Below, piece by piece: positions 1,469 through 15,649 of a stretch of 39,798 nt of DNA. Both the position numbers and the translations under genes were made by a program. Location of the stretch: positions 1 to 39,798 of the forward strand of contig JACPMW010000003.1 in NCBI GenBank assembly GCA_016185805.1, read 5' to 3'. The stretch is from Candidatus Woesearchaeota archaeon (lineage in GTDB: Archaea; Nanobdellota; Nanobdellia; Woesearchaeales; GW2011-AR4). The notes beneath the pieces were generated by a model, which did no database searches, was not told the DNA's origin, and saw only the letters and a program-made list of their open reading frames with translations. Position 1 is the stretch's first letter, and every line of letters starts with the position of its first letter.

Positions 1469-2308
1469 CTACATTATTTGCAGGCTGTCTATCGGGCTTT
1501 TTGTGCCAATCATTTTGGGAGATGCAATATGAAGATATACCATTGTTGTTTCTGCGCTGCTGTGCCCGAGCAATGACTGGACTTCTGCAACGCTGCTTCC
1601 GTTCTCTATAAGGTGGGTTGAAAAGCTGTGCCGCAAAGTGTGCGGATGGGCATGCTTGGATAATTTGGCATGTTTCCGTGCATTTTTTATTACGGATCTT
1701 ACGGACGCTGTTGTAAGGTGGCCATTAAATCCCCTGAAAATATAAGAATCAGGTGACGTGCATTCTTTTGAAATGTATGAAGCTAGCTCTTCCTTGATGC
1801 TCTCTGCTATGACAAACATCCTGTCCTTGTTGCCCTTGCCGTGCCTCACCCACCCATAGCCATTTTTGATGTCAAGATTTTCCGGCTTAAGGTGAACAAG
1901 CTCGCTTACCCTTAGCCCGGCAGAATACATCAGCTTTGCCATAAGCTTGTGCTTAGGATTGCTTATTGAATTTATCAGCCTTGCAATTTCTTCTTTGGTT
2001 AAAACTATTGGCAGTGATTTAGGGGTTTTTGAGTATCTTATATTGACCATTAACCGCCGGTTTAAGACACTGCCATAAAAAAACTTCAATGCGTTTAAGT
2101 TCACATTAATTGTGTTGCCGCATGTGCCTTTCCCAATCATGATGTCAAGGTAGGACTTGACATCGGCTTTCTTGATTTCATTTGGCTCTTTTTTGCACCA
2201 ATTGAAGAATTTTCTGACGCAATACCTGTAAGTCCTTATTGTTTTGTGGCTTAATCCCCTTCTGAGCCCTTCTTTCCTTATTAATTCCGGAATGTCCATT
2301 TTAATCAC
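1469..2308 (-). CDS. xerA: Xer-type tyrosine site-specific recombinase
   Basis: 279 aa with the full R-K-H-R-H-Y catalytic set (GLRVSE, HGKGNKDR, HTLRHSF, LGHSS, MVYLH). There are 59 residues between KDR and HTLRH. The start is GTG 2308 or ATG 2299. Confidence 0.8.
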   Translation of the reverse strand: MIKMDIPELIRKEGLRRGLSHKTIRTYRYCVRKFFNWCKKEPNEIKKADVKSYLDIMIGKGTCGNTINVNLNALKFFYGSVLNRRLMVNIRYSKTPKSLPIVLTKEEIARLINSISNPKHKLMAKLMYSAGLRVSELVHLKPENLDIKNGYGWVRHGKGNKDRMFVIAESIKEELASYISKECTSPDSYIFRGFNGHLTTASVRSVIKNARKHAKLSKHAHPHTLRHSFSTHLIENGSSVAEVQSLLGHSSAETTMVYLHIASPKMIGTKSPIDSLQIM

Positions 2309-2330
2309 ATTAATCCATGATGCATCTAAG

Positions 2331-2369
2331 GTTTAAATAATTCACGCGAAGATGTCCAGTGTCCAGTGG
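2331..2369 (-). promoter_or_regulatory. Promoter-proximal element copy A: two CTGGACA units plus a TATA-like box, upstream of the recombinase gene
   Basis: The reverse complement reads CCACTGGACACTGGACATCTTCGCGTGAATTATTTAAAC. The TATA-like box (2340-2331) lies 23-32 nt from the recombinase start codons. Two similar copies sit at 14759-14797 and 23010-23041. Confidence 0.45.
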
Positions 2370-2471
2370 TTATTTACGATATTGAAAAGAATTGATATCA
2401 GCCAATTTCCCAACTCCGCAATGAATACAGAAAAACAGGTTATGGCCAATCAAATCCAAGGCATTTAAGCC

Positions 2472-2506
2472 CTATAACCCTAAAATCTAAAGACTTTAGG
2501 TTATAT
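2472..2506. repeat. Imperfect inverted repeat CTATAACC(C)TAAA / TTTAGGTTATAT with one extrahelical C
   Basis: Read directly: 2472-2484 pairs with 2495-2506. It is followed by a second GTTATAAG unit at 2510-2517. Confidence 0.5.
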
Positions 2507-2810
2507 ACCGTTATAAGCCACCTTATCATCGATAACCTCCTCAAAATTTCTCGATGAAAATTCTAAAAACCATCAAAGCTTTTTAGAACTAAAGATTTTT
2601 TCAGGCAAAAAAATCGCATAAAATTATCAACAGTTATGATTATCTTAGAAAATATTAAATAGTTCTAATGTTTTTATTATAATTTATGTGGAGATTAGGC
2701 TTATAGCCCTTATAGCTTGCCTTACTCCATTGGTTCTCCATAAGTTCTTTGAATTTATGGTGAACATGAAAATGGAAACAAAAATCATTACAGCTGGAGT
2801 GACCCTGGCC

Positions 2811-2898
2811 GTGGAGACTCTGATGTAGTGAGGCAGCAATAATCTATAAGTTGAAATTCACGGTCAAGGGTTTGGGGGTTCAAATCCCCCTCTCCACT
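2811..2898 (+). tRNA. tRNA-like gene or pseudo-tRNA, class-II-like, best fold gives anticodon CUA
   Basis: Perfect 7-bp acceptor (GTGGAGA / TCTCCAC) and a canonical T-arm (GGGGG-TTCAAAT-CCCCC). The long variable region can form a 6-bp stem (AAATTC / GGGTTT). The anticodon stem CAATA/AGTTG has one A-A mismatch, its loop is ATCTATA, there is no nt 26 and the D-stem is weak. Confidence 0.35.
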
Positions 2899-2984
2899 CT
2901 TTGTAGAATGTAAATTGTTGATAATTTTCTGTTTTCTTCGAGAAATCAAGGGATAAATCCGAAAATGCTAATTGTTACTGCCTT

Positions 2985-3051
2985 CGTTTAACGCCATAAA
3001 GAAAAACTAAAGACGACAAAATTGAAAACTTTGTCTAACAAGCGTTAAACG
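2985..3051 (+). repeat. Junction J0: 10-bp inverted repeat enclosing a bulged hairpin and core site TGTCTAA|CAAGCG|TTAAACG (3032-3051)
   Basis: CGTTTAACGC (2985-2994) pairs with GCGTTAAACG (3042-3051). The inner stem is AGAC(GAC)AAA / TTTGTCT. The core matches the J1-J5 pattern. Confidence 0.55.
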
Positions 3052-3143
3052 GTTCGCTTACGCTCTCCCAAATTTTTGATTACTTTGAACGGGGGGGTTT
3101 CTAGAAAACTTTATAATCTTGCTTATAAGCACTATAGGTCAAT

Positions 3144-4718
3144 ATGGTAAATTGTGCAAAATGTGGAGAGAAAATAGGATTATTTCAAAAAAAATATGAT
3201 TATGAGAATAAGCACGGAAATACTATAAAGTATTGCTCAAAATGTAATGAAGAATATAAAAAACAAGAAGCTGAAACGAAACGAAAGAAAATCGAAAAAC
3301 AAAAATTAGAAGAGCAAAAAGCACAGGAAAAATATTCACAGGAAATTTCTGAGATTTGTAAAAAATATTTAACAACTAAAGATTATGATTTCAGAGGAAT
3401 AATCTCGGGAATATACAAAAATAAAGAATTATATGGGCTAGTTGAGAAGGAAGATATAGATTTCTTAAAACAACAGTTTATAAAATTGTATCAAAAAACT
3501 CAAGAAAGTTCTCCTTCAAGTTCTAAGGAATATGACGAAGTGATGTCTTTAGAGAACACCTATAATAATGCCTTGCAATTTATTCAGGACTTAGAAAAGG
3601 TTAAGAAAATATCAGAAAAAAAAGGAATTAAATCAGACTATATCAAAATAATCAAACTCATGGCAGATATTGTGAATGAAGATGAGAAAAAAAGGAGGGA
3701 AAAAATTGCAGTTGCTGCGTACCAACGGATTTCTAAAATTACGAGTGATAAAAAACAAATAATTAAGGAATTTCTCAAAATCCTCCAACCGGAAGATGAA
3801 ATGACTATTGAATTTTTATTTGATAAATTTGGGCTTTCTTACACTCATGAGGAAGTAACGAAACTACTAACAGAATGTATTGAAGACGCAGAAATTGAAG
3901 ATTTTGAAGAAAATATTGGTACAACACAAAAAAAACAAATAGGGGATTTTGAAAATCTTAGTGGACATCAATTTGAAAATTACCTAAAAGAAATTTTCTC
4001 TATTTTTGGCTATCAGGTTATTAGAACAAAACTAAGTGGCGACCAAGGGGCAGATTTAATTATAAAGAAGAACAACGAAAAAACCGTTGTTCAAGCAAAA
4101 AAGTATTCTGGTGATGTAACTAATAAAGCCGTCCAAGAAGTTGTTGCATCAAAAGAGCATTATGGTGCAAATAAAGCAATGGTTGTAACTACTGGAAATT
4201 TTACTAAAAGTGCCATTGAATTAGCAAGAAGCAATAAGGTTGAGCTTTGGGATAAAAATAAACTTAAGAATGTAGTATCGGAAATTAATAGTTCTTTGGG
4301 CACGAAGAAGGGATCACATACTCAAACCATGAGTTTAGACAGGGATTTTTTAGACAAGGATTCATTCCCAATAGTTTGTCCCTTATGCAGTTCAGAAATT
4401 GGAGATTCTTTAGATGGTTGCCCTAGAAAAAATGAAGTTCAAGAACTGTGTTGTCTTAAATGTACGGGTAGACTGACAATAAGTCTACCAGAAGAAGCTT
4501 ATTCTTGTCTAGGTTGCAAGCAAACATTTGACACAGTTAAAGAAAGGATTGAGCACTCAAAGTCATGCAAAAAACTGAAAGAAAGAGAGTTTAAATGCAA
4601 GTCCTGCCAAAAAGAATTTACTTTGGATGACTCGGAGTTTACTGAACTAAAAATAAAAGGAAAAATAAATATTGAATGCCCAAAATGTAAAAAAGACAAC
4701 TCTGTAGGTATTAAGTAA
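3144..4718 (+). CDS. Multidomain protein: N-terminal zinc ribbon, coiled coil, Mrr-like restriction-endonuclease catalytic domain, C-terminal cluster of zinc ribbons and C2H2-like fingers
   Basis: N-terminus has CAKCG...CSKCN. The Mrr-cat-like block reads GHQFENYLKEIFSIFGYQV...GDQGADLII...VVQAKKY...AMVVTTGNFTKSA. The C-terminus has CPLCS, CLKC, CLGCKQTFDTVKERIEHSKSC, CKSC and CPKC. Confidence 0.6.
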   Translation: MVNCAKCGEKIGLFQKKYDYENKHGNTIKYCSKCNEEYKKQEAETKRKKIEKQKLEEQKAQEKYSQEISEICKKYLTTKDYDFRGIISGIYKNKELYGLVEKEDIDFLKQQFIKLYQKTQESSPSSSKEYDEVMSLENTYNNALQFIQDLEKVKKISEKKGIKSDYIKIIKLMADIVNEDEKKRREKIAVAAYQRISKITSDKKQIIKEFLKILQPEDEMTIEFLFDKFGLSYTHEEVTKLLTECIEDAEIEDFEENIGTTQKKQIGDFENLSGHQFENYLKEIFSIFGYQVIRTKLSGDQGADLIIKKNNEKTVVQAKKYSGDVTNKAVQEVVASKEHYGANKAMVVTTGNFTKSAIELARSNKVELWDKNKLKNVVSEINSSLGTKKGSHTQTMSLDRDFLDKDSFPIVCPLCSSEIGDSLDGCPRKNEVQELCCLKCTGRLTISLPEEAYSCLGCKQTFDTVKERIEHSKSCKKLKEREFKCKSCQKEFTLDDSEFTELKIKGKINIECPKCKKDNSVGIK

Positions 4719-4736
4719 ATATGAAACTTATTAAAC

Positions 4737-5216
4737 ATGGACGAAAATCAAGAAAAAGCAAATAAAATTTTATGGGAATACCTACATCAAAATAAAAAAC
4801 CTATCAAATTAGATAGTAATGCAATGAAAATATTGGATATTGCTGAGAGTAATCATGAATATTATGAGTATATTCCTGATAAACTTTTTAGTTTATTACT
4901 TGAAAAAGATATAAAAATTGAAAAATTAGATTCGGAATTTAAACACTTATTCGAAAAAGAGCGAAAGTCAAATTATATTTCTGGATGGAAATCTATCTTA
5001 ATTCAAAAAGAAGTACATGCTAAGTTTCTAATAGCTCAATTTATCCATGAATACGCGCATCATAAATTTAAGATTGGTGAATGGAATAAAGATAATTATA
5101 AGCATCCTAAAACTCCTGGTGAGAGTAAAGAAGAGGATACTTGTAACATATTGAGTTGTGAATACGCTGAAATGAATGGATTTGGTAAGGAATATTCTAA
5201 ATTGATAGGACTTTAG
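4737..5216 (+). CDS. Hypothetical protein with HExxH motif (possible ImmA/IrrE-like zinc peptidase)
   Basis: 159 aa. FIHEYAHHKF contains HEYAH. It starts 19 nt after the Mrr-like gene on the same strand. Confidence 0.3.
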   Translation: MDENQEKANKILWEYLHQNKKPIKLDSNAMKILDIAESNHEYYEYIPDKLFSLLLEKDIKIEKLDSEFKHLFEKERKSNYISGWKSILIQKEVHAKFLIAQFIHEYAHHKFKIGEWNKDNYKHPKTPGESKEEDTCNILSCEYAEMNGFGKEYSKLIGL

Positions 5217-5394
5217 AGATAACTTATTTTTCTTAATGTAATGCTTCGCTCATTTGATAAAATGGAACTCCCCCAGTCCTGCGGACATATACTCTGCTTA
5301 CGCAGAAATCTATTATAACTAAAGTAATCAAAAACTACGGCAGTAACGCATTTTCGGTGGCTTAAAAACACCGCTCGGCATCAAAGCCTCGCTA

Positions 5395-5414
5395 CGTATA
5401 ACAAGAATTAAAAT
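5395..5414 (+). repeat. Junction core J1: CGTATAA|CAAGAA|TTAAAAT
   Basis: Read directly. It is preceded by stems CTGCG/CGCAG (5279-5305) and CGGTG/CACCG (5355-5373). Confidence 0.55.
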
Positions 5415-5444
5415 CAATTGAGAAAAATCCCCCTATTGCCCACA

Positions 5445-6020
5445 CTACTTAATACTTCTTAAGATATTTAATAGAATTTCTCCAACCTTAACATAATCAA
5501 TCATTCCACTTCTTGACATCTTTACACCGTGTACTGCTTTATTTCGAACTTTAGAGAGATAATCACTCATAGCTCTAATACTAATTAGTTTTTCACCATC
5601 CACCTTTTTCTTTTTCAATAATCTCTGTAATTCATTCTCAATCAAGAATGATAATTTAATTATGGAGTAATTGTAATCTTTAAAATTCAATTGATTATCT
5701 AATTCTTTCTTTATCTTTTCTTCATTAATTTTAAGTTTTTTTACTTTTGATTTATATTTAGATAATTGGTTCTTTAGTTCTTCTATTTCTTTTCTCCTTC
5801 TTTTCATTGCCCTACCATATAAAGAGAATTGCATGGCAAGAATTAATCCTAACATAACGGGGATAATTATCTCAAAAATTGACGTTGCTGGCATTACAAA
5901 CTCAATCTTTTTATCAAAAAGAAAAACAAAAATTAAAATGGAGTAAATTATTATAGTTATAGGTAGTACTATGATTAAAAATTCTTTCTTTTTCATTATA
6001 AATCTTGGGAAGGAAATCAT
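5445..6020 (-). CDS. Membrane-anchored coiled-coil protein with a C-terminal region resembling DUF4145 (RNKAVHG)
   Basis: 191 aa with two or three N-terminal hydrophobic helices and a K/E-rich coiled coil. The C-terminus reads LSKVRNKAVHG. Confidence 0.35.
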   Translation of the reverse strand: MISFPRFIMKKKEFLIIVLPITIIIYSILIFVFLFDKKIEFVMPATSIFEIIIPVMLGLILAMQFSLYGRAMKRRRKEIEELKNQLSKYKSKVKKLKINEEKIKKELDNQLNFKDYNYSIIKLSFLIENELQRLLKKKKVDGEKLISIRAMSDYLSKVRNKAVHGVKMSRSGMIDYVKVGEILLNILRSIK

Positions 6021-6223
6021 TGTTCTCCTCCCCCTTCAAATTGTTCCATTTTTTTGCCTGCTTCAATCCCTCCTAATCCAATAATTGTTGAATAGATTAT
6101 GAAATAAAACATTTCTGGTAAGGTTTCATGCATTACAAGAGCGACAGCTTGAAGTATAACGAAACAGACAACGGTGATTCCAATAATCCATGCTGAGGCT
6201 GATGAACTTATGTATGGTGCCAT
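6017..6223 (-). CDS. Small two-TM membrane protein, translationally coupled to the downstream gene
   Basis: 68 aa and hydrophobic. Its stop overlaps the next start (ATGA at 6017-6020 on the minus strand). Confidence 0.4.
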   Translation of the reverse strand: MAPYISSSASAWIIGITVVCFVILQAVALVMHETLPEMFYFIIYSTIIGLGGIEAGKKMEQFEGGGEQ

Positions 6224-6295
6224 TTATAAACTAAATATTTAATGTTCTATATAAATATGTTGGATGTGGGCTTATGTAGGGGATTTTTCTCAACT

Positions 6296-6354
6296 CTGCG
6301 GACGCAGGTTTCCAGAACTTTGTAACTGGAAACGATTTTAACAAGGGTTATACG
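6296..6354 (+). repeat. Junction J2: palindrome, 8-bp hairpin and core ATTTTAA|CAAGGG|TTATACG (6335-6354)
   Basis: Palindrome CTGCG-GA-CGCAG at 6296-6307. Hairpin GTTTCCAG-AACTTTGTAA-CTGGAAAC at 6308-6333. Confidence 0.6.
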
Positions 6355-6415
6355 CAATTTTTGCGAACGCCTAAACGAGATAGGGCTTTGGCATTAGCGA
6401 TTAAGAATATAGAAG

Positions 6416-6802
6416 TCAGTGAACTCTCTCTTCTAATAAACGTTGAGATATTTCTCCTGGTGCTTGGTAATAAAGAGTCACTTGAGTACTCACAAAAACG
6501 TCTGTCCTCTTTATGCGAACACCATTATCAAATTCTGTTGTGGTATCCTTAACTGGAATAGGGAAACCTTGACTGGGAGTTGGTTGTCGTTTTGTGTATC
6601 CTGTGATTCTACAACCAATTGGGTAAATAGTATAATCACCTTCTCCACCATGTATAAACAATTTCGCTTTGTCTGGCACTATACCAGTTAGTTCTATACC
6701 TTCTATAAGCTCTGTAATCTCCTTGAACTCACGCATAGATTGTCCTACATCAACTACCCTCCTTACAAAAGGGACGCTTTCAGTTACTCTAATGGTATTC
6801 AT
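6416..6802 (-). CDS. Hypothetical protein (cassette 3 cargo)
   Basis: 128-aa ORF with no recognisable motif. It is flanked by two perfect 14-bp inverted repeat pairs. Confidence 0.4.
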   Translation of the reverse strand: MNTIRVTESVPFVRRVVDVGQSMREFKEITELIEGIELTGIVPDKAKLFIHGGEGDYTIYPIGCRITGYTKRQPTPSQGFPIPVKDTTTEFDNGVRIKRTDVFVSTQVTLYYQAPGEISQRLLEERVH

Positions 6803-6952
6803 TTGTTGTTCAAGATATAGAACAAAGAAGTGTTTATAAAATTATGCCAAAGCCCTAGAATATTGTCTTGATGTATCGCTTCGCTCTTTTGATAGACGGC
6901 GTTCGCAAAAACTTTGCTTTGCAACCCCATTGCATTCTCCTTTCAGTCGGGG

Positions 6953-6972
6953 CGTATAACAGGAATTAAATG
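6953..6972 (+). repeat. Junction core J3: CGTATAA|CAGGAA|TTAAATG
   Basis: Read directly. It is preceded by small stems TTGC/GCAA and CCCC/GGGG (6925-6952). Confidence 0.55.
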
Positions 6973-7034
6973 CAATTAAATTTAAGTTTCCAATGATAGG
7001 GGAATTCTCTCTGATTTGTAAATAGCTAACAAAA

Positions 7035-7592
7035 ATGGAAAGAGTTATTAATAAAGAAATTAATATTAAGGAATTAATGAATAAAATTAAAAACAATTTA
7101 ATGTATTTAGGCTTTGCTTTTTTTGTTAGTTATGCTGCTGCATCCCCACAATTGGTGTATCCGGGTGGTGAAATCATAAGCAATTTTTATTTTGTTTTTG
7201 TTATAATATTTATTTTTTCTTTTTTAGCTATAAGATTTATTATTTTAAATAAAGACCTACCAATAGGACAAAATAAAATCTTAAAAATTACTTCTGCCAC
7301 ATCTTTTGTTTTTACATTATTTTTTATTTATCTCACTTATACTGAAAATACAAGCATACACATCCTAATAGGAACAAAAAATTTAGGCAACATAAATGGA
7401 TTTTACATATTAGCAACATTCATTTTAATTATAATGATTCATATTATCTTAAATTTACAAAAACACATCAAATTATCCAAAATTTTACCGTGTCTATACC
7501 CTTACTTCAAAATGTTTGGTTTGTCTATCATATTACTATTTATTAATATAATAGTATACACAATACTATCGTTTAGTATTTATTGTTGTTAA
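7035..7592 (+). CDS. Polytopic membrane protein (cassette 4 cargo)
   Basis: 185 aa, very AT-rich, with about five hydrophobic helices. Confidence 0.45.
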   Translation: MERVINKEINIKELMNKIKNNLMYLGFAFFVSYAAASPQLVYPGGEIISNFYFVFVIIFIFSFLAIRFIILNKDLPIGQNKILKITSATSFVFTLFFIYLTYTENTSIHILIGTKNLGNINGFYILATFILIIMIHIILNLQKHIKLSKILPCLYPYFKMFGLSIILLFINIIVYTILSFSIYCC

Positions 7593-7676
7593 TACTCCTA
7601 GATTAACTATCTAAAATATCACAAGAATTTTATAAACAGCAAAATTTATAAACTAGCACCCCCATAATCCAATATT

Positions 7677-7826
7677 ATGAAAACAGTAACCATATCAGAA
7701 TTAGAATACAAAACCCTGAAAAAGAAAGCTGAGTTGGATGAAGACTTATTAATGAAACTAATAAGGGGTCTGGAAGATATAAAAGCAGGAAGAATAAAGC
7801 CTTGGAAAAGCAAGTTTACCGATTAA
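7677..7826 (+). CDS. Small ORF (49 aa), possible antitoxin partner of the RelE-like gene
   Basis: Translation: MKTVTISELEYKTLKKKAELDEDLLMKLIRGLEDIKAGRIKPWKSKFTD. It is not in the ORF track (under 60 aa). It converges on the toxin gene with an 11-nt 3' overlap. Confidence 0.35.
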   Translation: MKTVTISELEYKTLKKKAELDEDLLMKLIRGLEDIKAGRIKPWKSKFTD

Positions 7827-8127
7827 GTTTTTTTCTTATTTCTTCCTTGTAATAAGGCATTAAGAGCTTTATTTTGTCAATTGCTTTCTGCTGGTCTTTT
7901 TTGCCGCTTATTGCAACAACAAACACAACTACATATTCATCATAAATCAAATAATAAAAGCGGTAATTTCTTACTTTCTTCTCCCTCAAAAATTTATAGC
8001 CTAGTGGCTTGCCAACATGAGGATTTGATTCTAACTGCTTAATTTCATTGTCAATCATTCTTTGAATAGAAGTGTCTAACTTTTCAAAATCTTTATCAAA
8101 TTCCTCAGTTGTAAATATCCTAAACAT
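7816..8127 (-). CDS. RelE/ParE-family toxin
   Basis: The pattern FRIFTTEEFDKDFEKL...IKQLESNPHVGKPLGYKFLREKKVRNYRFYYLIYDEYVVVFVVAISGKKD is typical of RelE/ParE. The ATG at 8127 is preferred over the track's TTG at 8145. Confidence 0.7.
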   Translation of the reverse strand: MFRIFTTEEFDKDFEKLDTSIQRMIDNEIKQLESNPHVGKPLGYKFLREKKVRNYRFYYLIYDEYVVVFVVAISGKKDQQKAIDKIKLLMPYYKEEIRKKLNR

Positions 8128-8249
8128 AAAAACAATAACAACCAATGCCTATTTAAACATTTGTTTTGAATTATATAATTGACTAAGAGAGAATTCCCTA
8201 AACTATAGTCTCGCTACGCTCGAATTTATTGGGAAACTTAAATTTAACT

Positions 8250-8309
8250 TTGCGGAACGCAACTTTTGAGAACTTCGTAGCTCAAAAGGCATTTAACAAG
8301 GGTTAAACT
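8250..8309 (+). repeat. Junction J4: palindrome, 8-bp hairpin and core CATTTAA|CAAGGG|TTAAACT (8290-8309)
   Basis: Palindrome TTGCG-GAA-CGCAA at 8250-8262. Hairpin CTTTTGAG-AACTTCGTAG-CTCAAAAG at 8263-8288. Confidence 0.6.
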
Positions 8310-8451
8310 CAATAATTTTTAGTGGCTAAACATAGATAGGGGGACATTTCTAACGACTAAAAAGAACTGTGGGTTTGAAATGAAAGTGAAAAACATCTGA
8401 TTGAAAACTAGAAAAATATTTAAAGTTGTTAAATCTAATAATAGCGAGATT

Positions 8452-9762
8452 ATGAAAAAAGAGGCATTAATCACTTTAATAATATTTTTTGCTATTTTCA
8501 TTTCTGGCTGCGGCTCTGGGCCGGGTGCCTTGCCTGCAGCACTGTCAGGGAAGGATTATTCTTATGATATACCTGCTCCATCTGGAGGCAAAGGGCCATT
8601 CAGTTGTGTTGCAACGCCTGATTCAGTGATTCCAACAGGCCTTAGTTTCAATGGATGCACTTTAACTGGAACTGCTCCAACACTTTTAGGAGTATCTGAG
8701 AAAGTATTTTCCTTTAAGTTCTCTATTACGGGTGCTGATGGAAAGTCCTATGGGCCTTTTGATGCTACACTGCCGGTTAGTGTAGGCCCTCCTGAATTTT
8801 TACCACCAGAATTGCCAGAAGCTGGTGTTGGCCAGGCGTATTCATTCAGTTTCTGCGATAATCCTACCGCATTAGATTGTGTAAGCAGTTCTTCAATTTC
8901 AGGCGGCGCTGGCGCTCCTTATACTTTCTCTGCTACTGGCCTGCCGCTGGGGATTTTCCTCAGCCCTAATGGGGAGTTAAGCGGAAAGATACCAGAAGAG
9001 GCGCAAGAAGGAGACAAAACATTCAATGTATGTGTGATAGACTCGGCACGTGTTGAAGACTGCAAGGATGTTAAGCTTAACATGAAGAAAAATGTTGCAC
9101 TGGGATACAAATTAAGCCTGAAATCAAGATTAGACTATAGTGGCGAAGTGGTTAACTTTAATTTTTGCGGCGGGTCTGCTAGGGAAAAGGGATCACTAAC
9201 GTGGGAAATCGATAATGTTGTAACACTTACACAGCCATATGCAGGAGGCTATTTCACTTCAGATGAATATGATGCAAAGGTAGATGAGTACGGCTACACC
9301 AGTGCAGATAATTTTAGGCATTTGCAAGTGCCTGTGAAAGCATCTGGCAGCGCTTCAACTTCACATGATTTCTGCGGTCGCAGCCAAATTGAATGCAAGG
9401 CAGATTCTTTCAGCGCTAGTTATGACCTTAAAATCCCAATAGAACTTAAATTAGACGAGTCGGGGCTTAGTGTATATATTGACTATGCGTATATCAAAGA
9501 TAATCCTGATCTTGAAGCAGGAGATATATCCAAACTGAATTGCGATAGTCCAGGTGCTTCAGAGTACATCCTTAAAAAAATGGCAATAGGATCACCTTTT
9601 GTCCGCGAGGGCGGTTATAGAAAGGCAGTTTTCGATACCAATGGTGGCACACTGACAGGGCAATACGAAGATAACAACCCTTACACTTATGCTTTTGGCG
9701 CAGCTCCAGGAAGAACATCAAGGCAACTGGCATGGTCGCTAACCGTGGAGCGGGTTAAGTAA
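8452..9762 (+). CDS. Secreted lipoprotein with putative Ig-like repeats (cassette 5 cargo)
   Basis: The ATG at 8452 gives MKKEALITLIIFFAIFISGCGSG, a signal peptide with a lipobox Cys. Repeated motifs PTGLSFNGCTLTGTAP and GLPLGIFLSPNGELSGKIP follow. The track start at 8401 is a TTG. Confidence 0.6.
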   Translation: MKKEALITLIIFFAIFISGCGSGPGALPAALSGKDYSYDIPAPSGGKGPFSCVATPDSVIPTGLSFNGCTLTGTAPTLLGVSEKVFSFKFSITGADGKSYGPFDATLPVSVGPPEFLPPELPEAGVGQAYSFSFCDNPTALDCVSSSSISGGAGAPYTFSATGLPLGIFLSPNGELSGKIPEEAQEGDKTFNVCVIDSARVEDCKDVKLNMKKNVALGYKLSLKSRLDYSGEVVNFNFCGGSAREKGSLTWEIDNVVTLTQPYAGGYFTSDEYDAKVDEYGYTSADNFRHLQVPVKASGSASTSHDFCGRSQIECKADSFSASYDLKIPIELKLDESGLSVYIDYAYIKDNPDLEAGDISKLNCDSPGASEYILKKMAIGSPFVREGGYRKAVFDTNGGTLTGQYEDNNPYTYAFGAAPGRTSRQLAWSLTVERVK

Positions 9763-9991
9763 GCACTGGCAGATTTTTAATTCTCAACATAATGTTTATA
9801 TAAACACCTTTTTTCTCTTTCTATATTTACAACAGAAGCTCGCCAGGAATTGAAAAAGCAGGGATAGCAAATGGACAAACACCCGCCCCCTACAACTAAC
9901 TAACGACTAAATTACGAAATGTTCCCCTTGATACTTGTTCTTTATTGCTCACCTTGTTCGCCTGATTGAACACGAGCCACTAAAAATTACT

Positions 9992-10050
9992 TTGCGGACG
10001 CAATTTTCCCACACTTGCGTATGGGAAAAGGATTTAACAGGAATTAAAAT
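9992..10050 (+). repeat. Junction J5: palindrome, 8-bp hairpin and core GATTTAA|CAGGAA|TTAAAAT (10031-10050)
   Basis: Palindrome TTGCG-GA-CGCAA at 9992-10003. Hairpin TTTTCCCA-CACTTGCGTA-TGGGAAAA at 10004-10029. The right side AATTAAAATCAATT is identical to J1. Confidence 0.6.
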
Positions 10051-10061
10051 CAATTTTCTAC

Positions 10062-10475
10062 TTATTGCTTCGGAGGCTCAATACCGAGCTGTTTCCACAA
10101 GCTTAAATTGTCCTCAATGCCCCAGCGCTCGATTATTTTGTTGTTTTTAATGCGTATGATGTCCATCACTGACATGGAAATCTTTTTCCCCGTTGGACTA
10201 ATTCCCATAAATTCCCCTTTCTGCGTGCCGCTAAACACGAATCTGGTTGCGACCTTGTCATTTTCGGCAATCATGTCCTCGATTTTTATCCTGGCATCCG
10301 GGAATGTTTTTCGTAATTCTTTAAAAGAATTCCTTATTTCATCAATTCCTGCCTCTTTTCCGTAAAAGCTGCGGTCGACAAAGTTTTCATCAAAAATTTC
10401 ATCTATAGCGGACAAATTGCCCTTGTTAAATACCTCCTCATAAAAGCGATGCATCAGTTCCTTATTCTTTTCCAT
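10062..10475 (-). CDS. SnoaL-like (ester/polyketide cyclase fold) protein
   Basis: 137 aa. N-terminus reads NKELMHRFYEEVFNKGNLSAIDEIFDENFVD and the C-terminus reads IIERWGIEDNLSLWKQLG. Confidence 0.65.
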   Translation of the reverse strand: MEKNKELMHRFYEEVFNKGNLSAIDEIFDENFVDRSFYGKEAGIDEIRNSFKELRKTFPDARIKIEDMIAENDKVATRFVFSGTQKGEFMGISPTGKKISMSVMDIIRIKNNKIIERWGIEDNLSLWKQLGIEPPKQ

Positions 10476-10476
10476 T

Positions 10477-11282
10477 TTAAACCTCGAAATATTTTATATC
10501 TAAATTTTCAACATCAATAATGGCACAATTCACTTTGTCTTCGGGATAGCTGCTTCCAACATTGATGCATATCGTATTTCCAATCTTGTCTTTCCATGAG
10601 CCGCTCATCTGCGGGCTTTCATGTATGTGCCCGTGCAGCGTTAAAAATGGCTGCTCTTTCTCTATGAAATTTTCACTGACTTGCTTCCGACATGGTTGTT
10701 TTTTAATGTTATATCCAGATTCGTGTTATAAGGTGGTGCATGAATCACATAAATTGTCTTTTTTGGATTGCTTAATTTTTTCAGATTATTCAAATCCTCC
10801 TCAATTGTTCCGCTCTCTTTTTCAGCGCTTCTTATCTCTTCACTAAACAATTGCAGCGGCCCTTTATCATTTTCAAAATCGGGCTTTTCCCAGTCTTTCA
10901 GCCTGAATGGGGTTGGATTGACAAAACTATATCCTGCAATGTTGATATTTTTATTGAATTTCATTGATTTATTATGTATTGATTTCAAGATTCTTGAATC
11001 CTCCAGCACATTGAGGTTTGCCTTGAAATCATCATTGCCCATTATTGCATAGATTTCAGTGTTTTTATTCTTTTCCTTGAACTTCTTGAACAATGGTAGC
11101 ATGATGTTTTCAATGAACTTTTTTTGGATTTTGACTCTTTCTTCAACAGAATTTCCTCCTTTCGGGCATAAGTCACCGCCAATGACAACAGCGCTGCATT
11201 TTTCATCCTCAGCTTTCTTCAACAATCTTCTGTAGAATTCCTCGTTTCCATGAAGGTCTGCTGAGTAGATTAGCTTGAACAT
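10477..11282 (-). pseudogene. Metallophosphoesterase interrupted by a 1-nt frameshift in a homopolymer
   Basis: The N-terminal part carries YSADLHGN, VIGGDL and GNDD and ends at TAG 10662-10664. The C-terminal part (ENFIEKEQPFLTLHGHIHE...DIKYFEV, stop 10477-10479) continues in another frame. One extra A in the A4 run (plus-strand T run 10670-10673) restores the frame. Confidence 0.7.
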
Positions 11283-12701: not shown

Positions 12702-14387
12702 ATGGATGAGCTTCTCAAAACCGCTATAAAGAAGTATGCCCTGCAGAATGCTGTAAGATACAAGGGCAAGGCCAATCCTGGCGCGGTCATAGGCAAGGTA
12801 CTGGCTGAGAACCCTAGATTGAGGGAAAATGCAAAGGAGATAAGCAGTGAAGCCTTAAAGGTGGTGAAAGAAATCAACAAGCTGCCTTTGGAGAAGCAGG
12901 AGAAAAAGCTTCAGGAATTGGCTCCAGAACTGCTGGAAAAGAAGGAAAAGGCAGAAAAAGACATCTTTGAGTTCCTTAACATAAGGGAAGGGCAAAAAGT
13001 CATAACAGCATTTCCACCAGAGCCGAGCAAATATCCCCACATTGGGCATGCAAAAGCAATTATTGTTAACTATGAGCTTGCAAAGCGCCATAACGGCACA
13101 TTCTATCTTAGATTTGAAGACACAAACCCGGAGCTGGCTGATGATGAATTCTATAGGATTCATCTTGACAACTACAAATGGCTGGGGATAGTTCCGGATA
13201 AGATTGACTATGCATCGGACTTCATGGAAGAGTTCTACAGATACGCTGAGAAGATTATCAATGAAAACCACGCTTATGTGTGCAGCTGCAAGCAGGAAAC
13301 TATCAAGGAAAACAGGAAAAATGGCACAGAATGCGAGCACAGGTACAGGCAGCCTGATAAAAATCTTGAGCTTTGGCAGCAGATGCCCAAGGCAAAAGCC
13401 GGAAAATATGTATTGAGGCTGAAGGGCCATATGCAAAGCCCCAACTCCACATTAAGGGACCCTGTCATCTTCAGGGTTGTTGATGAAAGCCACCCCAGAA
13501 AAAAGAAAAAGTACAGGCTCTGGCCAAATTATGACTTTGAAAGCGCGATAATGGATGGGATTGAGGGCATAACTCACAGATTGAGAAGCAAGGAATTCGA
13601 GCTTAGAAATGAGCTGCAGAGGCTCATACAAACGATGGCTGGATTTCCTGAAACCAATATTTACGAGTTTGCAAGGTTCAATCTTGAAGGCGTTGAAAGC
13701 TCTGGAAGGGTTATAAGGGAAAAAATGCAAAAAAAACAATTAATTGGGTGGGATGACCCATCATTGACGACAATAGTTGCGCTAAGAAGAAGGGGTTTTT
13801 TACCACAGGCAATAAAGGAATTCGTGCTTTCAACAGGATTGACAAAAACAGAGTCTGTATTGACTTGGGATGACTTGATAGTACACAATAGAAGGTTATT
13901 GGATGCAAAATGCAACAGGTATTTTTTTGTTGAAAATCCAAAGGAAATAAAGATAGAAAATGCGCCTGAACAATCTTGTGAATTGAAATTGCATCCTGAG
14001 TTCAAAGACAGGGGGGCAAGAAAATTCAAGACAAAAGACAGGTTCTATGTAGCTGAAAAGGATTTAAAGGAATTCAAGGAAGGCAAATTAATTAGATTGA
14101 TGGACTGCCTGAATTTTGCCAGGAAAAAAGGCAAGTTTGTTTTTGACTCTTTAGAATACGACAAATACAAAAAGCATGGCGACAAGATAATACATTGGCT
14201 GCCTGTGCAGAAAGGTTTAGTTAAAGTAGAAGTTTTGATGCCAGACAAGAAGACTGCAAAAGGATTGGCTGAGCCATTAGTGAAAAACTTGAAAGTTGGT
14301 GATATTGTCCAGTTCACAAGGTTTGGTTTTTGCAAACTGGACAGCAAAAAAGTTGATAAGCTGGTGTTTTGGTACACGCATGGTTAA
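12702..14387 (+). CDS. gltX: Glutamyl-tRNA synthetase, archaeal/eukaryal type
   Basis: 561 aa. The N-terminus KYALQNAVRYKGKANPGAVIGKVL is typical of archaeal GluRS. It has the HIGH motif PHIGHAKA, FYLRFEDTNP and LRSKEF. Confidence 0.9.
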   Translation: MDELLKTAIKKYALQNAVRYKGKANPGAVIGKVLAENPRLRENAKEISSEALKVVKEINKLPLEKQEKKLQELAPELLEKKEKAEKDIFEFLNIREGQKVITAFPPEPSKYPHIGHAKAIIVNYELAKRHNGTFYLRFEDTNPELADDEFYRIHLDNYKWLGIVPDKIDYASDFMEEFYRYAEKIINENHAYVCSCKQETIKENRKNGTECEHRYRQPDKNLELWQQMPKAKAGKYVLRLKGHMQSPNSTLRDPVIFRVVDESHPRKKKKYRLWPNYDFESAIMDGIEGITHRLRSKEFELRNELQRLIQTMAGFPETNIYEFARFNLEGVESSGRVIREKMQKKQLIGWDDPSLTTIVALRRRGFLPQAIKEFVLSTGLTKTESVLTWDDLIVHNRRLLDAKCNRYFFVENPKEIKIENAPEQSCELKLHPEFKDRGARKFKTKDRFYVAEKDLKEFKEGKLIRLMDCLNFARKKGKFVFDSLEYDKYKKHGDKIIHWLPVQKGLVKVEVLMPDKKTAKGLAEPLVKNLKVGDIVQFTRFGFCKLDSKKVDKLVFWYTHG

Positions 14388-14532
14388 TCAAAAAATTTGT
14401 CCAAAGTGCAAAAGCAAAAATATTGAAGCAGATTTTTCAGCCCATTCTTTCGCTCAAGGCTCAGTTTTCAACAAATATAAGTGCAATAAATGCGGCTATT
14501 CAGGAATGTTTTTTCCTGAAGTTAAAGAATAA
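14380..14532 (+). CDS. Small zinc-ribbon protein (50 aa)
   Basis: Translation begins MVNQKICPKCKSKN and continues to YKCNKCGYSG. Its ATG overlaps the gltX stop (ATGGTTAA). Confidence 0.5.
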   Translation: MVNQKICPKCKSKNIEADFSAHSFAQGSVFNKYKCNKCGYSGMFFPEVKE

Positions 14533-14537
14533 TAATG

Positions 14538-14653
14538 CGCCGCGGCTGGGAGTCTCACCCAGAAAAGGCGTCCTTTTATAGGATTTGAACCCAGATGCTG
14601 TTTCCAGCAGAAGGGTCTGAACCTTCCGCCCCACCAAGTTGGGCGACCGCGGC
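14538..14653 (-). tRNA. tRNA-Leu(CAG) with a 32-nt intron at the T-loop/T-stem boundary
   Basis: Minus-strand read: GCCGCGG-TC-GCCC-AACTTGGTG-GGGC-G-GAAGG-TTCAGAC-CCTTC-TGCTGGAAACAGCAT-CTGGG-TTCAAAT-[32 nt]-CCCAG-CCGCGGC-G. The intron is about 14582-14551 and contains the hairpin AAAAGG-ACG-CCTTTT. Confidence 0.85.
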
Positions 14654-14690
14654 ATGAAAAGATTTATATATATGTTTCCCAATACTATGA

Positions 14691-14730
14691 TTGAAGGGTC
14701 TGAAGCTTCTGTTCCGCCAGATTGGGCGGC
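14691..14730 (-). pseudogene. Degenerate copy of the tRNA-Leu D-arm and anticodon arm, 37 nt upstream of the intact gene
   Basis: The reverse complement GCCGCCCAATCTGGCGGAACAGAAGCTTCAGACCCTTCAA aligns with tRNA-Leu GCCCAACTTGG...GCGGAAGGTTCAGACCCTTC. Twelve nt (TTCAGACCCTTC) are identical. Confidence 0.5.
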
Positions 14731-14758
14731 TTTTTATTTTTAATGTGAATATTTTATT

Positions 14759-14797
14759 CTTTATAAATCTCACATGAGAATGTCCAGTGTCCATTGC
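14759..14797 (-). promoter_or_regulatory. Promoter-proximal element copy C (CTGGACA units plus TATA-like box) facing the tRNA-Leu locus
   Basis: The reverse complement reads GCAATGGACACTGGACATTCTCATGTGAGATTTATAAAG. The TATA-like box lies about 28 nt from the tRNA-Leu fragment start at 14730. Confidence 0.4.
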
Positions 14798-14865
14798 TAC
14801 TCTAAAATATATGTTAGAGAATAAAAAATCAGAAAGTATTTAAGCATAATAAAAAAAATTAGGAT

Positions 14866-15531: not shown

Positions 15532-15649
15532 TTTTCTGTTAATAGTCTTGCTATGTTTTTCTATAAGCAAGCGAAATGTTTTATTTTATTGTTTTCCATT
15601 CCTCTTGGCGCATTACTTAATAAATTAAAAAAATCTCAAAAATTAAAAA

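What the first reader, a model, noticed from the sequence alone, without database searches (positions are those of the whole stretch)
6296..6333. Conserved palindrome-plus-hairpin module before the junction cores, with compensatory stem changes
The same architecture occurs immediately left of J2, J4 and J5, with different sequence each time.

Part 1 is a palindrome with a 5-bp stem:
- CTGCG-GA-CGCAG (6296-6307)
- TTGCG-GAA-CGCAA (8250-8262)
- TTGCG-GA-CGCAA (9992-10003)

Part 2 is a perfect 8-bp stem with a 10-nt loop:
- GTTTCCAG-AACTTTGTAA-CTGGAAAC (6308-6333)
- CTTTTGAG-AACTTCGTAG-CTCAAAAG (8263-8288)
- TTTTCCCA-CACTTGCGTA-TGGGAAAA (10004-10029)

Part 3 is a 1-2 nt gap and then the core.

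The three 8-bp stems differ at most positions yet all stay perfectly complementary. The loop keeps a common a-CTT-n-G-TA pattern. That points to selection on structure, as folded single-stranded or cruciform DNA or as RNA, rather than on sequence. Integron attC sites show the same kind of behaviour.

J1 and J3 carry looser equivalents: CTGCG/CGCAG (5279-5305), CGGTG/CACCG (5355-5373) and CCCC/GGGG (6925-6952).
Basis: seen in the sequence. Interest (0 to 1): 0.75.

Follow-up and report, generated by a model that had tools for sequence, protein, structure and literature searches.

The report
Folded recombination site of archaeal gene cassettes
The palindrome-plus-hairpin is real and conserved by shape: it belongs to the recombination site of an integron-like gene-cassette array in tiny DPANN archaea, run by a Xer-type recombinase rather than a true integron integrase, and no paper in the library I searched describes such an arrangement.

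Summary
A covariance model finds exactly three strong copies in the window (62.7-73.7 bits) and one weak copy at J3. 108 distinct copies from about 150 other contigs keep the 8-bp stem paired (96.8%). All 8 pairs show two-sided changes.

The module lies in a cassette array that starts at an attI-like site (2472-2519), next to a divergent XerA-type tyrosine recombinase (1469-2308, minus strand). This recombinase lacks the IntI-specific domain. Sister contigs with an identical recombinase differ by one 345-bp cassette inserted exactly at attI.

Each cassette's two ends are complementary right up to the crossover (TAAC-N4-RTTA). The site is therefore a long palindrome that integration splits in two, unlike a classical attC. 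Rejoined, it folds into a long stem with a four-way junction. The palindrome and the 8-bp hairpin are two of its arms.

Three asymmetries point to folding of minus-strand single-stranded DNA:
- stem mismatches (A.C 18, G.T 2 on the plus strand);
- C-GNA-G loops read on the minus strand;
- GCGAAGC mini-hairpin motifs (42 on the minus strand, 0 on the plus strand).

Best reading: an attC analogue of a Xer-based, integron-like platform in Woesearchaeota and Pacearchaeota. The strand-exchange mechanism is inferred, not shown.

The parts
1469..2308 (-). XerA-type tyrosine recombinase (279 aa), divergent from the cassette array
   Evidence: Pfam Phage_integrase 1.1e-39 plus SAM-like N domain. NCBIfam recomb_XerA_Arch scores 218.8 bits against a cutoff of 220; integron-integrase TIGR02249 scores 189 against a cutoff of 265. 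The protein aligns along its length with XerA structures 5hxy and 4a8e with only small gaps. IntI4 residues 182-230, the IntI-specific domain, have no counterpart.
2472..2519 (+). attI-like insertion site: CTATAACC-N19-GGTTATATAC-C|GTTATAAGCC
   Evidence: Conserved about 200 nt upstream of the recombinase start in the window, L001, L002-L004 and L006, and in looser form in L247-L249. L003 and L004 carry an extra 345-bp cassette exactly here compared with L002.
3036..3049 (.). Junction J0 core (TAAC-AAGC-GTTAAA)
   Evidence: One-mismatch match to the core pattern. Its right flank resembles the left ends that follow many cores in other genomes.
5394..5415 (.). Junction J1 core: left arm, spacer AAGA, right arm ATTAAAATC
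   Evidence: Exact core. The right arm ATTAAAATC is the reverse complement of the J2 left arm GATTTTAAC except at its last base.
6296..6307 (-). 5-bp palindrome of the J2 module (CTGCG-GA-CGCAG), preceded by the conserved ACT at 6293-6295
   Evidence: The outer pair covaries in 108 copies: C:G 61, T:A 42, other 5.
6308..6333 (-). 8-bp hairpin of the J2 module
   Evidence: The minus-strand loop TTACAAAGTT belongs to the TAC-GNA-GT loop family.
6334..6355 (.). Junction J2 core: left arm GATTTTAAC, spacer AAGG, right arm GTTATACGC
   Evidence: The right arm is the reverse complement of the J3 left arm GCGTATAAC (5 of 5 variable positions).
6911..6973 (.). Degenerate module (ACT-TTGC-ttt-GCAA plus an imperfect stem CCCC..GGGG) and the J3 core
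   Evidence: Covariance-model match of 20.6 bits, E about 9e-4, with 4 non-standard pairs. The same site class occurs in L002, L017, L032 and L049.
8247..8310 (.). J4 module (ACT, palindrome 8250-8262, hairpin 8263-8288) and core (GCATTTAAC-AAGG-GTTAAACTC)
   Evidence: The same hairpin occurs in L002-L004 with a different neighbouring cassette.
9989..10051 (.). J5 module (ACT, palindrome 9992-10003, hairpin 10004-10029) and core (GGATTTAAC-AGGA-ATTAAAATC). This is the last junction of the array.
   Evidence: The 165-bp right end 9882-10055 is a site family shared by many loci with unrelated cargo.
5416..5444 (.). Left-end inverted repeat of cassette c2; it pairs with 6266-6295
   Evidence: Read from the sequence. 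Folds of the rejoined ends are (z -9.3 and -8.7).
6266..6295 (.). Right-end inverted repeat of cassette c2
6356..6394 (.). Left-end inverted repeat of cassette c3; it pairs with 6844-6913
6844..6913 (.). Right-end inverted repeat of cassette c3. An extra insert holds GCTTCGC at 6878-6884, which reads GCGAAGC on the minus strand.
6974..7011 (.). Left-end inverted repeat of cassette c4; it pairs with 8187-8249
   Evidence: z -7.7 and -7.0.
8187..8249 (.). Right-end inverted repeat of cassette c4
8311..8350 (.). Left-end inverted repeat of cassette c5; it pairs with 9916-9991
   Evidence: z -6.1 and -6.2.
9916..9991 (.). Right-end inverted repeat of cassette c5
5243..5249 (-). GCTTCGC, which reads GCGAAGC (mini-hairpin motif) on the minus strand, in the right end of cassette c1
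   Evidence: The strand asymmetry across loci is 42 to 0.

Best explanation
The palindrome-plus-hairpin module is the strand- and side-marking part of the cassette-borne recombination site (an attC analogue). The site belongs to an integron-like gene-cassette platform of DPANN archaea (Woesearchaeota, Pacearchaeota). The platform is served by a XerA-type tyrosine recombinase (1469-2308) and an attI next to it (2472-2519).

Shown:
- Cassettes are joined head to tail at TAAC-N4-RTTA cores.
- The right arm of one junction is complementary to the left arm of the next. This complementarity continues for another 30-45 nt.
- The complete site is therefore a 130-210 bp palindrome centred on the crossover, and integration splits it.
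- The module (ACT, 5-bp palindrome, 8-bp hairpin) occurs on one side only and butts directly against the neighbouring helices.
- New cassettes appear exactly at attI.

Inferred:
- The minus strand (the sense strand of the recombinase gene) folds as single-stranded DNA when the two halves are together. That happens in an excised circle, or when the paired ends of a cassette meet in single-stranded DNA.
- The fold is a long stem with a four-way junction. Its arms are the closing stem, the core-arm hairpin with the 4-nt spacer as loop, the GNA-capped 8-bp hairpin, and the palindrome.
- Very stable GNA/GCGAAGC mini-hairpins nucleate the fold.
- The recombinase reads the TAAC/GTTA arm duplex beside the unpaired spacer.
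- The one-sided module tells it which strand and orientation it holds, the role that extrahelical bases play in attC.
- One strand is exchanged with attI at TAA|C (G|TTA on the other strand), and replication resolves the product, as in integrons and CTX phage.
For: Structure conservation:
- 8 of 8 stem pairs have two-sided changes, and 96.8% of cells are paired across 108 copies. Slid controls give 34-50%.
- The covariance model finds the module only in the array.

Link to the recombinase:
- The array, with the same module orientation, lies upstream of the orthologous or homologous recombinase in the window, L001, L002-L004 and L248. Arrays with other hairpin types lie upstream in L247 and L249. 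The genes on the other side of the recombinase differ between these loci.

Insertion at attI:
- L003 and L004 equal L002 plus one 345-bp cassette at attI. The recombinase is identical.

Split palindrome:
- 25 of 70 candidate cassettes are 5/5 complementary at the variable arm positions, against 2.1% for mismatched partners. At least 15 different arm sequences occur.
- 33 of 128 end pairs score above the 99th percentile of controls.
- Complementarity within a single junction is low.

Fold:
- Rejoined ends of c2, c4 and c5 fold into a four-way junction with DNA parameters, z -6 to -9.

Minus-strand DNA:
- Stem mismatches are A.C 18 against G.T 2 on the plus strand.
- In the long repeats the ratio is 12 to 2.
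- 51 of 70 distinct loops read C-GNA-G or C-GNNA-G on the minus strand. GCGAAGC occurs 42 to 0 and CGAAG 149 to 7 in 27.9 kb of right ends.
- GCGNAGC and GCGNNAGC are extraordinarily stable DNA mini-hairpins (PMC13037366, PMC3201870).

Cargo:
- The cassettes carry an Mrr-type nuclease, a weak below-cutoff HEPN match, a ParE toxin and a lipoprotein. This is typical cassette cargo.
Against: - Nothing has been tested experimentally.
- Both strands fold about equally well in silico. The strand call rests on mismatch and loop asymmetries. A strand-biased C-to-T mutation pressure could also produce the mismatch asymmetry.
- The double-stranded core is already a complete two-arm site, so folding may not be needed for catalysis.
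- With the crossover at the apex of the palindrome, a folded strand offers only a half-site. I know of no precedent for a tyrosine recombinase dimer using such a substrate.
- The invariance of the palindrome comes from how I searched: the scan pattern fixed it. Many junctions in recombinase-anchored arrays use other hairpin classes.
- J1 and the segment 2510-3035 do not fit the scheme.
- Spacer length is bimodal, 4 nt and 8-13 nt, and I cannot explain this.
- The recombinase could simply be the housekeeping XerA, with attI serving as dif.
Confidence: 0.7

Rival explanations
1. Double-stranded Xer/dif-type modules (like IMEX elements or Acinetobacter pdif modules). The recombinase is the housekeeping XerA, attI is the chromosomal dif, and cassettes integrate by ordinary two-strand exchange at the double-stranded core. 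The palindrome is a binding site for an accessory protein. The hairpins never fold, or fold only as a cruciform.
For: - The core TAAC-N4-RTTA with inverted arms is a complete simple site in duplex form.
- The recombinase scores at the XerA cutoff and lies next to ftsZ in L001-L005.
- XerA acts on dif without a partner protein and accepts half-sites (PMC3646895, PMC8371274).
- The inner palindrome bases are invariant, though the search pattern fixed them.
Against: - Duplex recognition does not explain why arm, stem and flank sequences differ between cassettes yet stay complementary.
- It also fails to explain the strand asymmetries.
- All sites are in direct orientation, unlike the alternating pdif sites.
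- Archaeal dif is described as a single-copy 11-6-11 site (PMC8371274). Here there are six or more sites, with spacers of 3-13 nt.
Confidence: 0.15
2. The module is a single-strand initiation or SSB-excluding signal. On a single-stranded cassette circle or gap it recruits primase or polymerase for complementary-strand synthesis, and it does not guide the recombinase.
For: GCGAAGC-type mini-hairpins are known at single-strand replication initiation sites: the phage G4 origin, ssiA of RSF1010 and the N4 early promoters (PMC13037366). They are strongly enriched on one strand here.
Against: - The module butts against the core arms and the closing stem with zero spacing in all copies.
- It is always on the same side of the crossover.
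- No canonical module was found in viral contigs.
- This role could coexist with the main explanation rather than replace it.
Confidence: 0.07
3. It is a classical integron. The junctions are ordinary attC sites and a true IntI lies elsewhere in the genome (a cluster of attC sites lacking an integrase, or CALIN).
For: - AAC/GTT boxes lie at the crossover.
- Conservation is by structure.
- Ghaly et al. 2022 list attC clusters in a few Woesearchaeales and Pacearchaeales genomes. One is on a contig with glutamate-tRNA ligase, a gene also near these arrays.
Against: - The neighbouring recombinase lacks the IntI domain and falls below the IntI model cutoffs.
- The palindrome is split by the crossover instead of staying intact at the cassette 3' end.
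- No R''-L'' pair lies upstream of the L'-R'-like core.
- The recombinase is linked to the array in seven independent contexts.
Confidence: 0.04
4. It is an RNA element: a terminator, a processing site or a small RNA at cassette 3' ends.
For: A hairpin with covarying stems and a partly conserved loop is also typical of RNA. G.U wobble pairs would fit an RNA read from the minus strand.
Against: - No Rfam family matches.
- Orientation is fixed relative to the array, while cassette genes lie on both strands.
- The helices continue into the recombination arms and are centred on the crossover.
- GNA triloops closed by C:G are a DNA-specific stability motif (PMC3201870, PMC13037366).
Confidence: 0.03
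5. The cassettes are MITE- or IS-like transposons with terminal inverted repeats that inserted side by side.
For: Each unit has inverted repeats at its ends.
Against: - There is no transposase.
- The repeats differ between units, so no single enzyme could recognise them by sequence.
- Units abut at a shared 4-nt spacer, and I saw no target duplication at the junctions.
- Insertion is at one site next to a tyrosine recombinase.
Confidence: 0.01

Closest known systems
Integron attC sites with the IntI integrase (bacterial, and the archaeal integrons of Ghaly et al. 2022, PMC9668308)
   Same: - A divergent tyrosine recombinase gene, an adjacent attI that receives new cassettes, and a tandem array of promoter-poor cassettes.
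- Crossover at conserved AAC/GTT boxes.
- Sites conserved by folding rather than sequence. The probably active strand has the polarity of the integrase coding strand (the 'bottom' strand).
- The core resembles the right-hand simple site (L'-spacer-R') of attC. This last comparison is from memory.
   Different: - The recombinase lacks the IntI-specific domain.
- The palindrome is centred on the crossover, so it is split between the two ends of each integrated cassette. A classical attC stays intact at the 3' end.
- Strand marking is by a two-hairpin branch forming a four-way junction, not by single extrahelical bases.
- Cassette genes lie on both strands.
Elements that exploit Xer recombination (IMEX), especially the folded single-stranded attP(+) of CTX phage
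   Same: - A Xer-family recombinase.
- A folded single strand proposed as substrate.
- Tandem accumulation at one chromosomal site.
- Single-strand exchange resolved by replication. This comparison comes from established knowledge, not from a test here.
   Different: - In CTX phage the two arm-binding sites lie along the hairpin stem. Here the crossover is at the hairpin apex.
- The elements here are small cassettes of one to three genes, not phages.
- The hosts are archaeal. The review PMC8371274 does not mention IMEX elements in archaea.
pdif modules of Acinetobacter plasmids
   Same: Discrete gene modules bounded by Xer-type sites. Each module is flanked by inverted arms.
   Different: - pdif sites alternate in orientation and have sequence-conserved XerC and XerD arms.
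- Here all sites are in direct orientation, the arms vary and covary, and long structured flanks are present.
GCGAAGC / GNA mini-hairpins at single-strand DNA initiation sites (phage G4 origin, ssiA, N4 promoters; PMC13037366)
   Same: The same motif family (GCGNAGC, GCGNNAGC, C-GNA-G), enriched on one strand only.
   Different: Here the motifs are embedded in a recombination-site palindrome, not in a replication origin. No primase link is known.
Archaeal XerA and dif (P. abyssi, T. acidophilum)
   Same: The best structural relatives are 5hxy (138 bits) and 4a8e (132 bits). The protein has the same length and aligns along its length with only small gaps.
   Different: dif is described as a single 11-6-11 site per chromosome (PMC8371274). 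Here there is an array of direct sites with structured flanks.

Membership tests
Integron (IntI, attI, attC) | The integrase carries the IntI-specific additional domain around patch III | tested here: not met
   Alignment to VchIntIA (2a3v): query residues 17-179 match 16-181 and 185-274 match 231-318, so IntI residues 182-230 have no counterpart. TIGR02249 scores 189 bits against a cutoff of 265, and PRK15417 scores 135 against 435.
Integron (IntI, attI, attC) | A tyrosine recombinase gene lies next to, and divergent from, a cassette array that starts at an attI | tested here: met
   Seen in the window and in L001-L004, L006 and L247-L249. An insertion polymorphism lies at attI: L003 and L004 against L002.
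Integron (IntI, attI, attC) | attC is an imperfect palindrome R''-L''...L'-R' that stays intact at the 3' end of each cassette, with the crossover at its far end (G|TT of R') | tested here: not met
   The crossover lies between the two innermost arms of the palindrome. The right arm of junction n-1 pairs with the left arm of junction n, and the halves are 0.3-4.5 kb apart in the array.
Integron (IntI, attI, attC) | Conserved AAC / GTT triplets at the crossover | tested here: met
   TAAC and RTTA are invariant or nearly so at all junctions.
Integron (IntI, attI, attC) | Sites are recognised by folded structure of one strand, with features that mark that strand | tested here: inconclusive
   Covariation and minus-strand asymmetries fit this feature. 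Recognition itself cannot be tested in silico.
Integron (IntI, attI, attC) | The junctions are called as attC by the IntegronFinder/HattCI covariance model | not testable with these tools
   That model is not available here. Rfam gave no match.
Xer/dif chromosome-dimer resolution (archaeal XerA) | The protein belongs to the XerA equivalog | tested here: inconclusive
   NF040815 scores 218.8 bits against a cutoff of 220. The protein aligns along its length with XerA structures with only small gaps.
Xer/dif chromosome-dimer resolution (archaeal XerA) | A single dif site made of two 11-nt inverted arms and a 6-nt spacer | tested here: not met
   The window holds six direct sites. The arms are 9 nt with only TAAC/GTTA conserved, and spacers are mostly 4 nt with a second mode at 8-13 nt.
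Xer/dif chromosome-dimer resolution (archaeal XerA) | It is the only Xer recombinase in the genome and the site lies at the replication terminus | not testable with these tools
   No whole genome could be scanned. GC skew in the window is confounded by coding-strand bias.
pdif-type Xer modules | Modules are bounded by Xer sites in alternating orientation | tested here: not met
   All spacers are purine-rich on the same strand, and the module is always to the left of the core.
MITE/IS with terminal inverted repeats | A shared terminal-repeat sequence, target-site duplication, and scattered copies | tested here: not met
   The repeats differ between cassettes. The model finds copies only in the array within the window. 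No transposase was found.
Known RNA families (Rfam 15) | A match to a curated covariance model | tested here: not met
   There are no matches at gathering thresholds. At E<=1, the only match is a 17-nt T-arm-like stretch at 2874-2890.

The most novel reading that the evidence does not exclude
DPANN archaea carry a second kind of integron: a gene-capture platform built on a XerA-type recombinase without the IntI domain. Its cassette sites are split palindromes that fold, as minus-strand DNA, into four-way junctions capped by GNA mini-hairpins. This would be either an independent invention of the integron principle from Xer/dif or a surviving intermediate between Xer/dif and IntI/attC.
Probability: 0.5. 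Interest if true: 0.85.

Novelty: new variant of a known kind. Interest (0 to 1): 0.8.

Why it matters
Integrons are defined by IntI, with its extra domain, and by attC hairpins. Their origin from Xer-like recombinases is assumed but has no known intermediates.

A widespread archaeal platform does the same job with a plain Xer-type enzyme and a differently built folded site. Such a platform would matter in four ways:
- It would broaden the definition of integron-like systems.
- It would give a testable model for how structure-specific recombination evolved.
- It would explain part of the gene flux in the small, host-dependent DPANN genomes, where the cargo looks like defence and toxin genes.
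- It would offer a new structure-guided recombinase and site pair for engineering.

It also means that searches keyed on the IntI domain and the attC model probably undercount cassette platforms.

Tried and rejected
- **Known RNAs.** Rfam at gathering thresholds and at E<=1 over 2300-10200 gave nothing relevant. ARAGORN found no tRNA.
- **First genome scan too loose.** About 85 of the 120 loci were chance hits in bacteria with no stem. I tightened the pattern for the metagenome scan.
- **Classical attC reading.** I looked for R''/L'' partners upstream of the core on both strands and found none. The only AAC/GTT boxes are the adjacent core arms.
- **Crossover to the right of the right arm.** Rejected, because the arms within one junction are not complementary while the arms across a cassette are.
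- **Inversion (shufflon) model.** Rejected, because all spacers have the same orientation.
- **Viruses as carriers.** No canonical module was found in IMG/VR contigs.
- **Replication direction from GC skew.** Uninformative, because coding-strand purine bias dominates.
- **A junction or recombinase remnant after ftsZ (about 21650).** None found.
- **Folding energy to pick the strand.** Both strands fold equally well.
- **Literature.** No paper links Woesearchaeota or DPANN, a Xer-type recombinase and cassettes. The Ghaly 2022 supplements held as text contain no attC sequence with the palindrome.
- **The P. abyssi dif sequence.** It could not be retrieved from the text of PMC3646895.
Full report
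**1. The observation**

The junction core TAACARGRRTTAWA is exact at 5399, 6339, 6957, 8294 and 10035. It has one mismatch at 3036.

A covariance model built from 109 copies of the module scores J5, J2 and J4 at 73.7, 73.0 and 62.7 bits. It scores J3 at 20.6 bits (E about 9e-4), with the same layout but four broken pairs. It finds nothing else in the 39.8 kb, and it does not match J1.

**2. Is it more than chance, and is structure conserved?**

A first scan of 185,579 species genomes returned 120 loci. About 35 are real. All of these are from DPANN archaea (Woesearchaeota, Pacearchaeota, Nanoarchaeota) or from bins labelled Methanosarcinales or Halobacteriota. Each real hit has ACT, the palindrome, and an 8-bp stem directly after it. 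The bacterial hits have no stem. A tighter pattern that left the stem free filled the 120-locus limit in metagenomes.

From all sources I collected 108 distinct modules with 72 distinct hairpins. On their alignment:
- the 8-bp helix is 96.8% paired;
- all 8 pairs show changes on both sides (for example GTTTCCAG/CTGGAAAC, CTTTTGAG/CTCAAAAG, TCCGACCC/GGGTCGGA, GTCGCCAG/CTGGCGAC);
- the covariation score is 0.376 against 0.110 in shuffles (0 of 500 reach it);
- sliding the partner by 1-3 columns drops pairing to 34-50%.

In the palindrome only the outer pair varies, and it covaries: C:G 61, T:A 42, other 5. The inner palindrome bases were fixed by my search patterns, so their invariance is not evidence.

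**3. Context: a cassette array beside a Xer-type recombinase**

ORF 1469-2308 (minus strand) is a tyrosine recombinase.
- It scores 218.8 bits on the archaeal XerA model, whose cutoff is 220. It scores well below the cutoffs of the integron-integrase models.
- It aligns along its length, with only small gaps, to the XerA structures 5hxy and 4a8e.
- Against VchIntIA the alignment breaks where the IntI-specific domain lies. IntI residues 182-230 have no counterpart.

Its close homologues are all from Woesearchaeota or Nanoarchaeota.

In contigs carrying orthologues (L001, L002-L005, L006) and more distant homologues at 58-63% identity (L247-L249), arrays of the same kind of junction lie upstream of the gene in the same relative orientation. 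The genes on the other side differ: ftsZ, the SecY operon, PIN/NUDIX, ParA.

The window's cassettes carry an Mrr-type nuclease with zinc ribbons, a membrane protein with a weak below-cutoff HEPN match, a ParE toxin, a He_PIG lipoprotein, and small unknown proteins. The genes lie on both strands.

**4. attI and direct evidence of insertion**

A conserved site, TTATAACC-N19-GGTTATATAC(T/C)|GTTA, lies about 200 nt upstream of the recombinase start. It occurs in the window (2472-2519), L001, L002-L004 and L006, and in looser form in L247-L249.

L002, L003 and L004 come from different samples and encode the identical recombinase. L003 and L004 differ from L002 by a 345-bp insertion exactly at this site. 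The insertion holds a 69-aa zinc-ribbon ORF, and it is bounded by the repeated TTAAATGCAATTG. New cassettes therefore enter at the position nearest the recombinase, as in integrons.

The window's array thus begins near 2510, not at J1. The segment 2510-3035 does not look like a normal cassette.

**5. The module is an insertion in a split palindrome**

The right arm of each junction is the reverse complement of the left arm of the next junction:
- J1 ATTAAAATC pairs with J2 GATTTTAAC (all but the last base);
- J2 GTTATACGC pairs with J3 GCGTATAAC;
- J3 ATTAAATGC pairs with J4 GCATTTAAC (all but the last base).

The complementarity continues outward for another 30-45 nt.

Across all loci, 25 of 70 candidate cassettes are perfect at the five variable arm positions, against 2.1% for mismatched partners. 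At least 15 different arm sequences occur. The arms within a single junction are rarely complementary. Also, 33 of 128 end pairs exceed the 99th percentile of controls for the longer repeats.

The crossover therefore lies between TAAC and RTTA. The full site exists only when a cassette's ends are joined. The module (ACT, palindrome, hairpin) is present on the right-end half only.

Site sequences fall into families shared by cassettes with unrelated cargo. For example, the 165-bp right end at 9882-10055 recurs in many loci. Other junctions use other hairpin classes, for example stems closing a TTGCA loop.

**6. The fold**

Rejoined ends of c2, c4 and c5 fold, with RNA or DNA parameters, into a long stem that opens into a four-way junction. 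One arm is the core-arm hairpin of 9 bp, with the 4-nt spacer as its loop. The other two branches are the 8-bp hairpin and the palindrome. The helices butt directly against each other (z -6 to -9). Cassette c3, with its degenerate module, folds more weakly (z about -4).

**7. Which strand, DNA or RNA?**

Energy does not discriminate between the strands. Three asymmetries do.
- Imperfect hairpin stems carry A.C 18 times and G.T twice on the plus strand. These are therefore G.T wobbles on the minus strand. The long repeats give 12 to 2. The conserved ACT/AAT contact beside the junction is likewise C.A on the plus strand and G.T on the minus strand.
- Read on the minus strand, 51 of 70 distinct loops are TAC-GNA-GT or TAC-GNNA-GT, with all four bases seen at N.
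- GCGAAGC occurs 42 times on the minus strand and never on the plus strand in 27.9 kb of right ends. CGAAG occurs 149 times against 7. In the window the motif is at 5243 and 6878.

GCGNAGC and GCGNNAGC, and C:G-closed GNA loops, are extraordinarily stable DNA mini-hairpins. GCGAAGC melts at 76.5 C (PMC13037366, PMC3201870).

These results point to minus-strand single-stranded DNA. This is the sense strand of the recombinase gene, which is the 'bottom' strand in integron terms. A strand-biased C-to-T mutation pressure could add to the mismatch asymmetry. That pressure would still imply that the minus strand is often single-stranded.

**8. Mechanism**

Shown:
- the cassette boundaries;
- the split palindrome;
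- the one-sided module;
- insertion at attI;
- the linkage to the recombinase.

Inferred:
- The folded minus strand is the substrate.
- The mini-hairpins nucleate the fold and protect it.
- The recombinase binds the TAAC/GTTA arm duplex beside the unpaired spacer.
- The two-hairpin branch supplies strand and orientation information, as extrahelical bases do in attC.
- One strand is exchanged with attI at TAA|C, and replication completes the event.

One point is open. A hairpin with the crossover at its apex offers only a half-site. XerA does process half-sites in vitro (PMC3646895). Also, in a single-stranded array the paired ends of neighbouring cassettes would place two arm duplexes on either side of each unpaired spacer, making a full pseudo-site. 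This is speculation.

**9. Comparison with what is known**

The system works like an integron but fails two defining tests: the IntI domain and the intact 3' attC.

It resembles Xer-exploiting elements and pdif modules in its enzyme family. It differs from them in site orientation, in arm variability and in its structured flanks.

The archaeal integrons of Ghaly et al. 2022 have IntI with the extra domain and classical attC sites. Their supplement lists small attC clusters in a few Woesearchaeales and Pacearchaeales genomes. One is on a contig with glutamate-tRNA ligase, a gene that also lies near these arrays. Some of these loci may therefore already have been seen as integrase-less clusters. 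I could not verify this.

No paper in the searchable library links these archaea, a Xer-type recombinase and cassettes.

**10. Verdict**

It is best filed as a new variant of the integron principle. The mechanism is inferred but testable.

Noticed in passing
window 2874-2890 (inside 2510-3035): GGGGGTTCAAATCCCCC followed by TCTCCAC looks like the T-arm and 3' acceptor of a tRNA or tmRNA (Rfam tmRNA partial match, 15 bits, E 0.007). ARAGORN finds no gene. The surrounding 0.5-kb segment between attI and J0 has no ORF of 60 aa or more and no complementary ends. It may be a decayed cassette or a remnant of another integration.
   Followed up: partly
window 2354-2369: A tandem GTCCAGT-GTCCAGTGG lies about 45 nt upstream of the recombinase start codon. 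It is conserved in L001-L004, L247 and L248. It could be an operator or promoter element of the recombinase gene.
   Followed up: no
window 12702-21643 compared with L001-L005: The block from GluRS through the HTH protein and two ORFs at the positions of the cytidylate kinase and FKBP genes of L001-L005 (not scanned here) to ftsZ lies downstream of the array in the window. In L001-L005 it lies on the other side of the recombinase. The recombinase-attI-array unit and this 9-kb block have therefore changed places. No junction-like site was found after ftsZ (21650-22100).
   Followed up: partly
L086, L112, L113, L155, L211, L248 and others (for example L086 minus strand, coordinates 615 and 1388): The spacer between TAAC and RTTA is bimodal: 4 nt in 40 of 75 sites and 8-13 nt in 30 of 75. 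The long spacers end in (C)GAT|GTTA and look like a 4-nt spacer followed by an extra degenerate arm.
   Followed up: partly
L012, L017, L026, L030, L039, L047: Canonical modules occur on contigs binned as Methanosarcinales and in a single-cell assembly labelled Halobacteriota. The cause could be mis-binning, an attached DPANN cell, or real spread beyond DPANN.
   Followed up: no
L112 minus strand, about coordinate 285: One module carries GCTTCGC (GCGAAGC on the minus strand) inserted inside the loop of the 8-bp hairpin, and a variant palindrome CTGC-TA-CGCAG.
   Followed up: no
window 23177-24346: An ORF with an HTH_3 domain plus a LAGLIDADG_3 domain (a homing-endonuclease-like protein) lies in the chromosomal backbone downstream of ftsZ.
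   Followed up: no
window 10478-11282: The metallophosphoesterase gene just beyond the last junction is read as a 206-aa ORF (10662-11282). Further same-direction coding-like sequence lies between it and the SnoaL gene. It may be truncated or frameshifted.
   Followed up: no
window 7678-8145 (cassette c4): The ParE-like toxin (7816-8145, minus strand) is convergent with a 49-aa antitoxin-like ORF on the plus strand (7678-7827) rather than co-oriented with it. This is unusual for a toxin-antitoxin pair.
   Followed up: no
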